DNA from: a virus
Taxonomy: Duplodnaviria; Heunggongvirae; Uroviricota; Caudoviricetes
Strand: one strand, 5' to 3'
IMG/VR virus record: IMGVR_UViG_2690316115_000013
Span: 1-5,976 of that record
Length of the DNA stretch: 5,976 bases
Positions 3,001 to 5,976 of this stretch are shown in pieces. Positions within the stretch are counted from its first letter, which is position 1. Each line of letters begins with the position of its first letter. The position numbers were made by a program.

Positions 3001-5976
3001 CTCCTTTAGTTTCAGAATTCAAATTGTCTTGCCCGCAGGCTTTTCAGCATTGGCATGGCCCGCTGGATAACGGAACTTGACATGTCGAGACGTGTTACCT
3101 CCCTCAGTAGCGCGTCTCTGTTCTTCGTCACCATGTAGATGGTCTCAAACGCAATGTCATACAGCTTGTTCGTGTATGAGGAGTTCAGCTCTTTCATAAT
3201 GGGATACAGGTGTTTGCTGATGTCCTGGGCTTTTTCCATCCAGAGCTGCATGTAGCAAAGGAGGATGATTTCTTCGGCTGTGAATTGTGGCTGAATCTGC
3301 GGCTGCTGTTCGGTTGGTGCTGTTTTTCCCTGGCTGAAATAGCAGTCTTCCAGTTTTTCGAATACCTCCCACGCCCGATCGGTTTCGAGCATTTTTGCGT
3401 GACGGGCTGCGCCGCGTTCTGTCCAGAGGATGAGGGAGCGGGCATTTTTACCAACTAACCCGATTGTTTCGGGTCTGTTCTTAAACTCGCGTAATTCGTT
3501 TTTTTCAATTTTAAAGTAATGCTTTCCGGGCATGAATCGCGTCGTGTTGTTCAGAAAGTTATCAGAAATGTTTTTGATTTTTGTTCCGTAAAGGTGAGCC
3601 AACAGTTCAGTAGTAATTACGGGGATCTGGTTATAGGTAACAGGGGAAAGGTTTTCGACAGAAATTTGAACAGCCATAATGACCTCGCGTTTCGATAATT
3701 TTTACCTCGCCACCGTCAGGTGCTAATCATCGTGGTGGCGAACTGTGCGGGGTTAGCACTACCGGTCGAAACATCCGGCGAGCCTTTCGGCTCCCCCACA
3801 CAGCCCGCCATAAATCGCGAATGTGACTGTGCTTAGCGCATAAAAAAACCGCCAGCGCGGTTATGCACCGTTTCGATATCCGGGGTGCTAATCCCGACGC
3901 CAGGTTTTGCTGGCGCGTGAGGAATATAGCCCCGAACACGCGACGTTGTCAAACTGATGGCATTGCAGATCCCTACGCAATGTAACACTATGTGTTATAC
4001 ATTAATAACGGAACAAAAAATGCGCATTTTTAAAAACGCCTGGTTTGAGCGATTTGCACGCAAAACAAAATATCCGACCAATCACTGCGCGAAATTGTTA
4101 AACAGGCTGATAACGGGCTTATCTCAGCAAACCTGGGTAACGGCGTTATCAAGCAACGTCTGCCACGAGTCGGTGGCGGCAAATCTGGCGGTTATCGCAC
4201 AATCATTTTCTATCGCGTCGGCACAAGGGCCTTTTTCGTATATGCATACGCAAAAAATGAACGTGAAAATATAACCGCTACTGCGGAAAGTGCATTTCGG
4301 AAGGCGGCTCCTCACGTACTCAATCTAACAGATGAACAACTGGCACAACTGATTCTACAGGGTCAGTTTACGGAGGTACCCAATGAGTAAAAATTACCGC
4401 AGTGATGCGCTTGCATCCGTACATGAAATGATGGAATCGCTTCATGATATCGGCGCAGTAACGAAACAGACTATGCGAGAATTCGATGAAACTTGTCTCC
4501 AGCCAGCGCCGGTAATGTCTCCGGAAAGGATCCGTGCACTGCGCGAACGAGAGCATCTGTCTCAACCTGTTTTTGCCAGATACCTCAACGTCAGTAAAAA
4601 CCTGATATCAGACTGGGAACGTGGTGTAAAACGGCCGGGAGGTGCCGCTCTTCGCCTTCTTTCAGTCGTAGAGAAAAACGGGATCCAGGTAATATCATGA
4701 TACTCCAATACAACAAAACCCGCCGAAGCGGGTTTTCATTAGAAGCACCTTTAGTTTTGCTGTTCTATTTTAAGCTTGATAGTTTCATACAAAACAATAG
4801 TTGCGCCTGTTTTACATAATTCCCGGCTGTCATACGCACGAGACCAATAACACAACCAGTTCTCGAGATCTTCTCGAGTATAGGTTTTGCAGGCCAGTCC
4901 CTCTGCCATTTCCACGATTTCATCGCCTGGTGCTGTTAACTCATAGCCATTCAACAACAAGAAGACATAACCAGCCATCATAGCTGTTCGTTTGTTTGCA
5001 TTAGCAAATGGATGATTCTGAATCAGACTTTCAATCAATACTGATGCCAGTACAAACATGTCATTAGTCTGTTCATACCATCGAACCATGCTGGGACGAG
5101 ACTGAGAAGAACTTAAATTATCAACACTCAGCACACTAACAGGTTCATCTGGTGTTTGAAGCTCAATTAAAAGGCGATTAATTTCGGTAAGATCATCAAA
5201 CGAAAGGTAGTGCACTCCTTCAACAATCTCAGCCATAGAGCACAATACCCATCATTACACTTTTGAAAGTTCTTCCATTGCCTTCTCGTAACGAGAAAAA
5301 CCGAAATCGAAAGCATTTTTCACCTGCTCACGATGAGTGCAATTTTCATCGATAGCCGGGCGCGGAGCTGCCACAACGCTTTTATCGCGAGGGGGAATAG
5401 TCAATCGCGGGTGTTTTTTTAGTGCGTAGCTCATTGGGTGTACCCTTACTTCTCCGTCCTGTTCTTTAACAAAAATCAAGTCAATACAAAATTAGTCAGG
5501 CTAATGTTGTTAGCATAGCCTAATACCAATCGTATTCACAACCACAGTAAGTGAAAAAACCCGCCGAAGCGGGTTAAGTGCGGGTGCGTTGAGGATGCCT
5601 GACACATCAGAGGTGGCGAGGGATTTCTCCCTCGCCTGGTCTCTTACTCCTCAGGTTCGTAAGCTGTGAAGACAGCAACCTCCGTCTGACCGGTTCGGAT
5701 TCGTACCTCGCAGAGGTCTTTCCTCGTTACCAGTGCCGTCACTACGACGGTAATACAGATGACGATCAGGGCGACTAACATCGCCTTTTGCTGCTTCATA
5801 GCCTGCTTCTCCTTGCCTTTCGGCGCGTAAGAGGCTAACCTACATGTGTCTAGCATGAAATTGGCCTCAGATTAATGTTAGGCGTCTTGCAGGACGCGTA
5901 ATGTTAACTGGGGCTTTTCTCTGTCTGCCTTACGGTGGCATGCCCGAGGCAGACAGCCTCAAGCACCCGCAGCAAT

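What the first reader, a model, noticed from the sequence alone, without database searches (positions are those of the whole stretch)
5554..5976. Apparently complete hok/mok/sok locus with complementary 5' tac and 3' fbi elements
The hok ORF is intact and mok is an in-frame upstream extension. The inferred mRNA 5' end (GCGGGUGCUUGAGG, 5957-5970) is complementary to a 3' segment (CCUCAACGCACCCGC, 5580-5594) just upstream of the terminator, which is the fold-back arrangement that keeps full-length hok mRNA inert. Many chromosomal hok loci are decayed, so an intact one next to two other TA modules is worth noting. The hok promoter lies beyond the window end and Sok could not be delimited.
Basis: partly seen in the sequence, partly recalled or inferred. 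Interest (0 to 1): 0.45.

Follow-up and report, generated by a model that had tools for sequence, protein, structure and literature searches.

The report
Intact prophage hok/mok/sok toxin–antitoxin locus
This is a complete, ordinary copy of the well-known hok/sok RNA-controlled killer-gene cassette, sitting in a lambda-like prophage of E. coli and present in nearly the same form in most sequenced E. coli genomes.

Summary
On the minus strand of 5554-5976 lies a full hok-family type I toxin-antitoxin locus. It has an intact 51-aa Hok (Pfam HOK_GEF), an in-frame 70-aa Mok extension, a leader matching Rfam RF01794 (116.9 bits, cutoff 59), a 3' fbi element and an intrinsic terminator. The 5' tac pairs with fbi over 14-15 bp (-27.3 kcal/mol; 4 of 3000 shuffles reach this). 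That helix recurs at the same position in most of 67 hok loci from many enterobacteria, with compensatory changes. With fbi removed in silico, the RNA refolds into the published active form. Sok can now be delimited on the plus strand: TTGCCT-17-TAACCT promoter, start near 5848, end near 5918-5924. The promoter hexamers are those of the experimentally validated sokW. The hok -10 box (TAGAAT) is cut by the window end. The locus is not a core chromosomal gene. It lies in the nin region of a lambdoid prophage, is 100% identical in E. coli ML35 and 99.6% in O104:H4 (annotated hokD), and is 91% identical to hokW-sokW of phage Sp5. Full-length copies occur in about 70% of complete E. coli genomes. 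It is already known and of low interest.

The parts
5975..5976 (-). Last two bases of the hok promoter -10 box (TAGAAT). The rest of the -10 and a weak -35 (TTTGCG or TTGCGG) lie beyond the window end.
   Evidence: Flank read from E. coli ML35 (L001 7997-8002), which is 99.97% identical to window 108-5976. A TAnAAT-type -10 sits at the same distance from the conserved GGG in the upstream alignment of 73 distinct hok loci.
5554..5968 (-). Full-length hok mRNA, about 415 nt. The start is predicted at G5968 (+/-2 nt); the 3' end falls in the T-run after the terminator.
   Evidence: The start is 7 nt after the -10 box and coincides with the first position of the Rfam RF01794 match. Terminator scan. 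Fold z = -8.96.
5957..5971 (-). tac (translational activator element), GGGUGCUUGAGG core.
   Evidence: Pairs with fbi in the full-length fold and with ucb in the truncated fold. Conserved in 67 loci.
5921..5956 (-). 5' stem-loop enclosed by the tac/ucb stem.
   Evidence: Present in both folds. 92.9% of cells paired across the family, with A-U/U-A covariation (helix 3).
5910..5916 (-). ucb (anti-SD box, AAGCCCC). It pairs with the mok SD in the full-length RNA and with tac in the truncated RNA.
   Evidence: Helix 6 is 85.6% paired with G-C/A-U covariation. Element definitions from PMC9841398.
5865..5868 (-). mok Shine-Dalgarno sequence (GAGG), 8 nt upstream of the mok ATG.
   Evidence: Read from the sequence. 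Aligned with the R1 and hokC mok SD.
5644..5856 (-). mok ORF (70 aa), an in-frame N-terminal extension of hok.
   Evidence: ORF list. Same arrangement as the annotated K-12 mokC/hokC. In R1-type loci the in-frame upstream stretch carries no Met, so mok cannot share hok's frame there.
5831..5836 (-). dcb (AGCCUC). It pairs with the mok SD region in the truncated RNA and overlaps the sok -10 box on the other strand.
   Evidence: Part of the nearly invariant TAGCCTCTTAC block.
5809..5814 (-). hok Shine-Dalgarno sequence (AAGGAG).
   Evidence: Read from the sequence. The CAAGGAG block is nearly invariant in the family.
5644..5799 (-). hok toxin ORF, 51 aa.
   Evidence: Pfam PF01848 HOK_GEF, 82.6 bits against a cutoff of 22. 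94% identical to K-12 HokD, 88% to HokC, 86% to HokW, 43% to R1 Hok.
5615..5636 (-). Conserved 3' UTR hairpin (GGCGAGGGA-GAAA-UCCCUCGCC).
   Evidence: Helices 25-27 are about 96% paired with compensatory changes.
5579..5594 (-). fbi (fold-back inhibitory element), CCUCAACGCACCCGCA.
   Evidence: A partner of tac lies 42-57 nt after the stop codon in most family members, with compensatory changes.
5554..5575 (-). Intrinsic terminator of the hok mRNA (CCCGC-UUCG-GCGGG followed by U6).
   Evidence: Terminator scan on the identical ML35 sequence. Present in the fold.
5813..5841 (+). sok promoter: -35 TTGCCT (5813-5818), 17-nt spacer, -10 TAACCT (5836-5841).
   Evidence: Read from the sequence. Both hexamers are identical to those of sokW. 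The sokW -10 was destroyed in the promoter-less mutant, which lost antitoxin activity (PMC8621323; primers YO-421/422). R1 has the same layout, TTGCGC-17-TATCCT.
5848..5924 (+). Sok antisense RNA. Starts at G5848, has a 9-nt single-stranded 5' tail and a long hairpin, and ends in the U-run at 5918 (71 nt), or at 5924 by analogy with sokC.
   Evidence: The start is aligned to the annotated K-12 sokC 5' end, which lies opposite the 9th nt of mok. Hairpin fold -35.4 kcal/mol, z = -6.5. sokW is reported to have 71 nt of complementarity.

Best explanation
[quoted passage not shown] It lies in the nin region of a lambdoid prophage.

Proposed mechanism, following the published R1 model:
1. A weak promoter, cut by the window end, makes a roughly 415-nt hok mRNA.
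2. The 5' tac element of that mRNA pairs with the 3' fbi element. The upstream ucb box covers the mok ribosome-binding site, so the full-length RNA is neither translated nor bound by Sok.
3. Slow 3' trimming removes the terminator and fbi.
4. tac then pairs with ucb, and a hairpin displays the mok start region in its loop (CUAGACA, which contains a YUNR U-turn motif).
5. Either the roughly 71-77-nt antisense Sok RNA binds there through its 5' tail and the duplex is destroyed, or, if the unstable Sok has decayed, mok/hok is translated and the 51-aa Hok peptide damages the inner membrane.

What is shown here: the sequence elements, both alternative folds, family-wide covariation, and identity or homology to annotated and validated loci.

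What is inferred: transcription start sites, processing, RNA half-lives, toxicity and biological role. By analogy with hokW-sokW of phage Sp5, the role is most likely to speed host lysis and phage release after prophage induction.
For: - The Rfam RF01794 match covers the full model at 116.9 bits against a cutoff of 59.
- Pfam HOK_GEF scores 82.6 bits.
- The tac-fbi helix is in the minimum-free-energy fold (z = -8.96) and is reached by only 4 of 3000 shuffles.
- In 67 hok loci from Escherichia, Kluyvera, Photorhabdus, Pantoea, Erwinia, Sodalis, Mixta, Enterobacter, Leclercia and others, the tac partner sits 42-57 nt after the stop codon. Compensatory changes are seen:
  - GGGUGC/GCACCC versus GGGCGC/GCGCCC
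  - UUGAGG/CCUCAA versus UCUGGAUC/GAUCC.GAG
- The core helix is 90% paired. One pair splits C-G:31, U-A:27, U-G:5.
- The whole full-length fold is 75.9% paired on the family alignment, against 37-44% for slid controls. Its covariation score is 0.192 against 0.06-0.09.
- Removing fbi and the terminator switches the predicted fold to a tac/ucb stem, a target hairpin and a mok-SD/dcb stem. This equals the Rfam consensus and the published truncated form (PMC9841398).
- The sok promoter hexamers are identical to those of sokW, whose -10 mutation abolishes antitoxin activity.
- The sequence is 100% identical in E. coli ML35 and 99.6% identical in O104:H4, both annotated hokD. It is 91.4% identical to the Sp5-type hokW-sokW locus.
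Against: - No expression data exist for this exact allele.
- Neither promoter passes the simple sigma-70 consensus scan. The sok -10 TAACCT matches 3 of 6 positions, and the hok -35 matches 3 of 6.
- The outer part of the tac-fbi helix is only 68% paired on the MAFFT alignment, where the register differs between subfamilies.
- Start and end coordinates of both RNAs are inferred by homology and are uncertain by a few nucleotides.
- The biological role is extrapolated from a 91%-identical locus in a different prophage.
Confidence: 0.9

Rival explanations
1. The locus looks complete but is a decayed, non-functional remnant, like most hok loci of E. coli K-12.
For: Several loci collected here are visibly decayed. 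K-12-type hokD copies lack the whole leader. L053 has a scrambled Hok, and some loci lack a recognisable fbi. Both promoters are weak matches to consensus.
Against: - The hok and mok ORFs are intact and every regulatory box is present and correctly paired.
- The sok promoter hexamers are identical to those of the functional sokW.
- No IS element or rearrangement is present in the window or in the flank.
- K-12 hokD matches only window 5813-5555, so this locus retains the 163 nt that K-12 lost.
Confidence: 0.05
2. The cassette is functional, but its main role is prophage addiction (killing cells that lose the prophage) or abortive-infection defence against other phages, not helping lysis after induction.
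For: R1 hok/sok is a post-segregational killing system and was reported to reduce T4 plating (cited in PMC8621323). The locus sits beside other toxin-antitoxin modules, Phd/Doc-like and RelE/HTH-like, a typical accessory or defence cluster.
Against: The only experimental study of this subtype found no growth phenotype in the lysogen. It found a positive effect on lysis timing and a roughly 2-fold gain in phage yield after mitomycin C. These roles are not mutually exclusive, and none was tested for this allele.
Confidence: 0.3
3. The 5'-3' complementarity is a chance match with no role.
For: The helix is short (14-15 bp) and G+C-rich. GC-rich 3' UTRs give strong random duplexes, with a shuffle mean of -17.6 kcal/mol.
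Against: Only 4 of 3000 shuffles reach the observed energy. The position is conserved and compensatory changes occur across distant genera. The helix appears in the global minimum-free-energy fold.
Confidence: 0.01

Closest known systems
hokW-sokW of Stx2 prophage Sp5 (E. coli O157:H7 Sakai; Takada et al. 2021, PMC8621323)
   Same: - Same position in a lambdoid phage, in the early-right region upstream of Q.
- Same orientation.
- 91.4% DNA identity over 405 nt.
- Same in-frame mok.
- Same 17-19-nt insertion that lengthens the Sok hairpin relative to hokC and R1.
- Identical sok -35 and -10 hexamers.
- The predicted 71-nt Sok matches the reported 71-nt complementarity.
   Different: - The Hok C-terminus differs (…FTAYEPEE here, …FVDYESEK in HokW; 86% identity).
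- This locus has a canonical GC hairpin plus U6 terminator right after fbi, which the Sp5 sequence lacks at that place.
- The neighbouring genes differ.
hokD (relF) of cryptic prophage Qin, E. coli K-12
   Same: Closest toxin protein, at 94% identity. 96.5% DNA identity from the hok SD to the terminator, including fbi (window 5813-5555). RefSeq names the present gene hokD.
   Different: K-12 hokD lacks the upstream 163 nt. It has no tac, ucb, mok start or sok gene, and is fused behind relBE. The present locus has all of these, so it is the complete form of that lineage.
hokC/mokC/sokC (gef) of E. coli K-12
   Same: Same architecture, with mok in frame with hok and an annotated Sok RNA starting opposite the 9th nt of mok. 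75.7% DNA identity over 357 nt.
   Different: sokC is 59 nt, because it lacks the hairpin insertion. It is a core chromosomal locus and, in K-12, has IS186 beside it. The hok promoter -10 is TATAAT rather than TAGAAT.
hok/sok (parB) of plasmid R1
   Same: Same set of elements (tac, fbi, ucb, dcb, mok, Sok), the same two-state folding logic and the same sok promoter layout.
   Different: - Hok is only 43% identical.
- There is no blastn match at E < 1e-5.
- R1-type loci have no in-frame Met upstream of hok, so R1 mok (from my recollection of the R1 sequence) lies in another frame.
- tac is GGCGCUUGAGG.
- It is plasmid-borne and serves post-segregational killing.

Membership tests
hok/sok type I toxin-antitoxin family | Small hydrophobic Hok/Gef toxin ORF of about 50 aa | tested here: met
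   51-aa ORF at 5799-5644. Pfam PF01848 scores 82.6 bits against a cutoff of 22. The conserved TRK.LCE…EVA.F motif is present.
hok/sok type I toxin-antitoxin family | Conserved hok mRNA leader (Rfam RF01794 covariance model) | tested here: met
   116.9 bits against a gathering score of 59. E = 5.5e-27, model positions 1-157 of 157, window 5968-5794 on the minus strand.
hok/sok type I toxin-antitoxin family | mok reading frame with its own SD, starting upstream of hok and overlapping it | tested here: met
   GAGG at 5868-5865 and ATG at 5856 give a 70-aa ORF in frame with hok, as in the annotated K-12 mokC.
hok/sok type I toxin-antitoxin family | 5' tac and 3' fbi elements that pair in the full-length mRNA | tested here: met
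   14-15 bp at -27.3 kcal/mol, reached by 4 of 3000 shuffles. Present in the minimum-free-energy fold. Conserved with compensatory changes.
hok/sok type I toxin-antitoxin family | Alternative fold after 3' truncation: tac/ucb stem, target hairpin and mok-SD/dcb stem | tested here: met
   The predicted fold of 5968-5597, and of the leader alone, adopts exactly this structure. It agrees with the Rfam consensus and with PMC9841398. This is an in silico result only.
hok/sok type I toxin-antitoxin family | cis-encoded antisense Sok RNA gene with its own promoter, complementary to the mok translation initiation region | tested here: met
   TTGCCT-17-TAACCT promoter, start at G5848, hairpin plus U-run. 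Positionally homologous to the annotated sokC. The hexamers are identical to the validated sokW promoter. Whether it is transcribed in this strain was not testable.
hok/sok type I toxin-antitoxin family | Unstable Sok and stable hok mRNA; slow 3' processing; RNase III cleavage of the duplex; Hok toxicity | not testable with these tools
   Requires RNA half-life measurements, Northern blots and toxicity assays. Shown for R1, and in part for hokW.
Prophage hokW/hokD subtype | Location in a lambdoid phage between the replication genes and Q, in the same orientation as the early-right operon | tested here: met
   ML35 and O104:H4 prophages, phages mEp460, Tritos and vB_EcoS-689R5, and K-12 Qin, where hokD is co-oriented with Q. 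That is six of six, although K-12 Qin retains only the hokD-to-Q part of that context.
Prophage hokW/hokD subtype | 17-19-nt insertion (CGCGUCCUGCAAGACGC) that lengthens the sokT/Sok hairpin | tested here: met
   Present here and in 12 other loci of the phage-type group. Absent from the hokC, Photorhabdus and plasmid groups.

The most novel reading that the evidence does not exclude
In this prophage subtype, the trigger that removes Sok after induction may be transcriptional interference. The published hokW-sokW work found that sokW RNA disappears after induction but left the cause open.

- hok always lies between the replication genes and Q, in the same orientation as the early-right operon. 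This held in all six phages and prophages examined.
- Antiterminated early-right (PR) transcripts that must reach Q would therefore run through the cassette head-on against the sok promoter and over the hok terminator.
- That would shut off Sok synthesis and create hok RNAs with different ends.

If so, prophage induction would be wired directly to Hok release with no dedicated sensor.
Probability: 0.3. Interest if true: 0.45.

Novelty: already known. Interest (0 to 1): 0.12.

Why it matters
It matters little as a discovery. The sequence is identical to genes already annotated as hokD in public E. coli genomes, including the O104:H4 outbreak lineage. The family's mechanism is a textbook case of RNA-controlled killing.

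The locus has two modest uses:
- It is a clean, complete reference for the hokD lineage, which in K-12 survives only as a leaderless fragment.
- Its fixed position and orientation in lambdoid phages suggest a simple, testable link between prophage induction and loss of the Sok antitoxin.

Tried and rejected
- **Unrestricted RNAduplex.** Running the 100-nt upstream region against the 170-nt downstream region gave a meaningless -68 kcal/mol full-length pairing. I restricted the query to the 16-nt tac.
- **Run-time failure.** A first shuffle run exceeded the time limit and produced nothing.
- **Consensus promoter scan.** It called neither the hok nor the sok promoter, because both have a hexamer with only 3 of 6 matches. 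I placed the promoters by family alignment, the annotated sokC and the sokW mutagenesis primers instead.
- **blastn against an R1-type plasmid locus.** No match at E < 1e-5. Homology to R1 rests on the covariance model, the MAFFT alignment and the protein.
- **First R1-type locus fetched (L006).** It has IS150 just upstream of hok and was left out of all the analyses. I used L087 instead.
- **Weak Rfam hits over the hok 3' UTR.** isrK scored 31.2 bits (cutoff 50) and rsmX 24.9 bits (cutoff 56), both at 5554-5641. I rejected them as generic two-hairpin resemblance. That segment is the conserved hok 3' UTR hairpin plus terminator.
- **Chance explanation for tac-fbi, and a decayed locus.** Both were considered and rejected (see rival explanations).
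Full report
**1. What is in the sequence**

Read on the minus strand, window 5976-5554 contains the following elements in order.

| Element | Window coordinates | Sequence or note |
|---|---|---|
| hok promoter -10 (last two bases) | 5976-5975 | TAGAAT, mostly beyond the window end |
| tac | 5968-5957 | GGGTGCTTGAGG |
| 5' hairpin | 5956-5921 | |
| ucb | 5916-5910 | AAGCCCC |
| long hairpin | about 5908-5871 | |
| mok SD | 5868-5865 | GAGG |
| mok ATG | 5856 | |
| dcb | 5836-5831 | AGCCTC |
| hok SD | 5814-5809 | AAGGAG |
| hok ATG | 5799 | |
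| stop codon | 5646-5644 | TAA |
| 3' UTR hairpin | 5636-5615 | |
| fbi | 5594-5580 | CCTCAACGCACCCGC |
| terminator | 5575-5554 | CCCGC-TTCG-GCGGG-T6 |

- They form 14 bp with one bulged C.
- An extra U-A pair gives 15 bp.

**2. Is the complementarity more than chance?**

- The tac-fbi duplex is -27.3 kcal/mol.
- Only 4 of 3000 dinucleotide-preserving shuffles of the 3' UTR reach it.
- Apart from tac's own complement on the other DNA strand, fbi is the best partner of tac in the whole window on both strands.
- The global fold of the 415-nt RNA closes with this helix (-185.1 kcal/mol; shuffles average -132.6; z = -8.96).

**3. Identity of the locus**

- Rfam's hok-leader model RF01794 (named 'sok') matches 5968-5794 end to end at 116.9 bits against a gathering score of 59.
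- The ORF matches Pfam HOK_GEF at 82.6 bits.
- The 497-nt region is 100% identical in the chromosomes of E. coli ML35 and an O10:H32 strain. It is 99.6% identical in O104:H4 strains. It is annotated there as hokD.
- Window 108-5976 is 99.97% identical to ML35.
- In ML35 and O104:H4 the gene order is: cI-like repressor, cro, cII, replication genes, DUF551, a small ORF, hok, a Doc toxin with a small upstream ORF, a RelE-like/HTH pair on the opposite strand, antirepressor genes, ninB, ninE, rusA, ninH, Q.
- This is the nin region of a lambdoid prophage. The locus is therefore prophage cargo, not a core chromosomal hok.

**4. The part beyond the window**

- In ML35 the sequence upstream reads …GGTTTGCGGTAAAGCGAGAGTTAAGTAGAATTGCTGCGGGTGC….
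- TAGAAT ends 6 nt before the G at window 5968.
- In an alignment of 73 distinct hok loci, a TAnAAT-like box sits at this same distance from the conserved GGG(U/C)GCUU.
- The -35 is poor (3 of 6 matches). This fits the weak hok promoter known from R1 (my own knowledge) and explains why the consensus scan missed it.

**5. Delimiting Sok**

- The plus strand at 5813-5841 reads TTGCCT-17 nt-TAACCT, followed 7 nt later by G5848.
- The annotated K-12 sokC starts opposite the ninth nucleotide of mokC. The same rule gives 5848 here.
- From 5848 the RNA has a 9-nt free 5' tail (GUCUAGCAU) and a long hairpin (-35.4 kcal/mol, z = -6.5).
- GGGGCUUUU ends at 5918, which gives 71 nt. sokC's annotated end would correspond to 5924.
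- Takada et al. report a 71-nt complementarity for sokW.
- Their promoter-less mutant lost antitoxin activity. Its primers change TAGGTTA to CCGGCTC, which destroys exactly this TAACCT box (PMC8621323).
- The Sp5 antisense strand has the same two hexamers as this window.

**6. Family-wide test of the structure**

I fetched 80 loci encoding Hok relatives from one genome per species. They include Escherichia, Shigella, Kluyvera, Citrobacter, Photorhabdus, Pantoea, Erwinia, Sodalis, Mixta, Enterobacter, Leclercia, Buttiauxella and others.

- In most loci with a conserved leader, the best partner of the 16-nt tac lies 42-57 nt after the hok stop codon.
- The two sides change together.

| Group | tac | fbi |
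|---|---|---|
| phage type | GGGUGCUUGAGG | CCUCAACGCACCC |
| Photorhabdus | GGGCGCUUGAGAC | CUCUCAAGCGCCC |
| Mixta | GGGUGCUCUGGAUC | GGAUCCAUGAGCACCC |
| plasmid type | GGCGCUUGAGG | …GAAGCGCC |

- On a MAFFT alignment of 67 full-length loci, the core helix is 90% paired. One pair is C-G in 31 sequences, U-A in 27 and U-G in 5.
- The outer four pairs are only 68% paired, because the bulge register differs between subfamilies.
- The complete full-length fold of this locus, mapped on the alignment, is 75.9% paired against 37-44% when partners are slid. Its covariation score is 0.192 against 0.06-0.09.

| Helix | Cells paired |
|---|---|
| tac-fbi core | 90% |
| 5' hairpin | 93% |
| ucb / mok-SD | 86% |
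| long pairing of the hok translation start region with the 3' end of the hok coding region | 88% |
| 3' UTR hairpin | about 96% |

**7. The switch**

- When fbi and the terminator are removed (5968-5597), or the leader is folded alone, the predicted structure changes.
- It becomes a tac/ucb stem, a separate long hairpin, and a stem joining the mok SD region to dcb.
- The loop of that last stem (CUAGACA) is complementary to the Sok 5' tail.
- This is the Rfam consensus structure. It is also the 'truncated, translatable, Sok-binding' form described for R1 (PMC9841398).
- The loop contains CUAG, a YUNR U-turn motif of the kind known to speed antisense binding (my own knowledge, not tested here).

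**8. Relation to named loci**

| Locus | Protein identity | DNA relation |
|---|---|---|
| K-12 HokD | 94% | matches only window 5813-5555 at 96.5% |
| K-12 HokC | 88% | 75.7% over 357 nt |
| HokW (Sp5-type) | 86% | 91.4% over 405 nt |
| R1 Hok | 43% | no blastn match |

- K-12 hokD has therefore lost tac, ucb, the mok start and sok. It sits behind relBE.
- The present locus is thus the complete form of the hokD lineage and a close relative of hokW.
- mok is in frame with hok, as in the annotated mokC. In R1-type loci the in-frame upstream stretch has no Met.
- A 17-19-nt insertion lengthens the Sok hairpin in this phage-type group only.

**9. How common it is**

- 4717 of 5426 complete E. coli genomes have a match.
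- 3809 have a place covering at least 80% of the 497-nt query.
- The median is two places per genome that has any match.
- 110 phage records and 1780 plasmid records also match.
- An intact copy is therefore the rule, not an exception.

**10. Likely role**

- For hokW-sokW, HokW is toxic and sokW counteracts it, with partial help from RNase III and Hfq.
- After mitomycin C, sokW RNA vanishes in a RecA-dependent way and HokW reaches the inner membrane about an hour before the endolysin appears.
- Deleting the locus delays growth arrest by about 40 minutes and halves phage yield.
- By homology the same is the best guess here. Prophage addiction or exclusion of other phages remain possible.
- In all six lambdoid contexts examined, hok is co-oriented with the early-right operon and lies upstream of Q.
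- Read-through transcription after induction must therefore cross the cassette against the sok promoter.
- This could explain the unexplained loss of sokW. It is an inference only.

**11. Verdict**

Sok is now delimited, the promoter is located, and the context is corrected to a prophage. The locus is already known and ordinary.

Noticed in passing
window 2146-2344 and 3731-3929 (minus strand), with ORFs 1410-2093 and 3012-3677: There are two tandem copies of a P1/P7-type immunity-like module. Each has a C4 antisense RNA (Rfam RF01695; 66.7 and 75.1 bits), its a1/b1 targets (RF03163) and an isrK-like sRNA (RF01394; 75.5 and 74.3 bits). Each is followed by an ORF6N/P22_AR antirepressor gene. 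The two copies are only about 75% identical in the RNA part. O104:H4 carries only one copy.
   Followed up: partly
window 3957-4390 (plus strand): The RelE-like toxin (Pfam PF06296) of the neighbouring TA pair is split between two frames. Profile positions 1-34 are in the ORF 3957-4274, and positions 15-120 are in frame 4052-4390, which has no ATG/GTG/TTG start. RefSeq annotates it with an ATT start in ML35 and as a shorter gene in O104:H4. The toxin is probably frameshifted, while the HTH antitoxin (4383-4700) is intact.
   Followed up: partly
window 5573-5579 and L001 7991-7997 (just beyond the window end): The DNA inverted repeat that forms tac/fbi continues outside the predicted mRNA. GTTAAGT overlaps the hok -10 region and is complementary to ACTTAAC, which lies between fbi and the terminator. 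The two are separated from the tac-fbi helix by a roughly 10-nt loop on the 5' side. In a transcript starting further upstream, such as phage read-through, the closing helix would be longer.
   Followed up: no
window 5255-5434 (minus strand): The small ORF immediately upstream of the Doc/Fic toxin gene (4751-5245) is the presumed antitoxin. It has no Pfam match, either as 59 aa or as the 74-aa extended ORF. It may be an undescribed Phd-replacing antitoxin.
   Followed up: no
window 1-107: The first 107 bases do not align with the otherwise 99.97%-identical ML35 prophage or with O104:H4. The break falls within the rusA-like ORF region, which suggests a mosaic recombination junction.
   Followed up: no
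L052 156-900 and L041 701-1468 (Photorhabdus): Photorhabdus genomes carry many hok loci, some as direct tandem pairs a few hundred bases apart. In L052 the upstream copy shows no fbi at the expected place.
   Followed up: no
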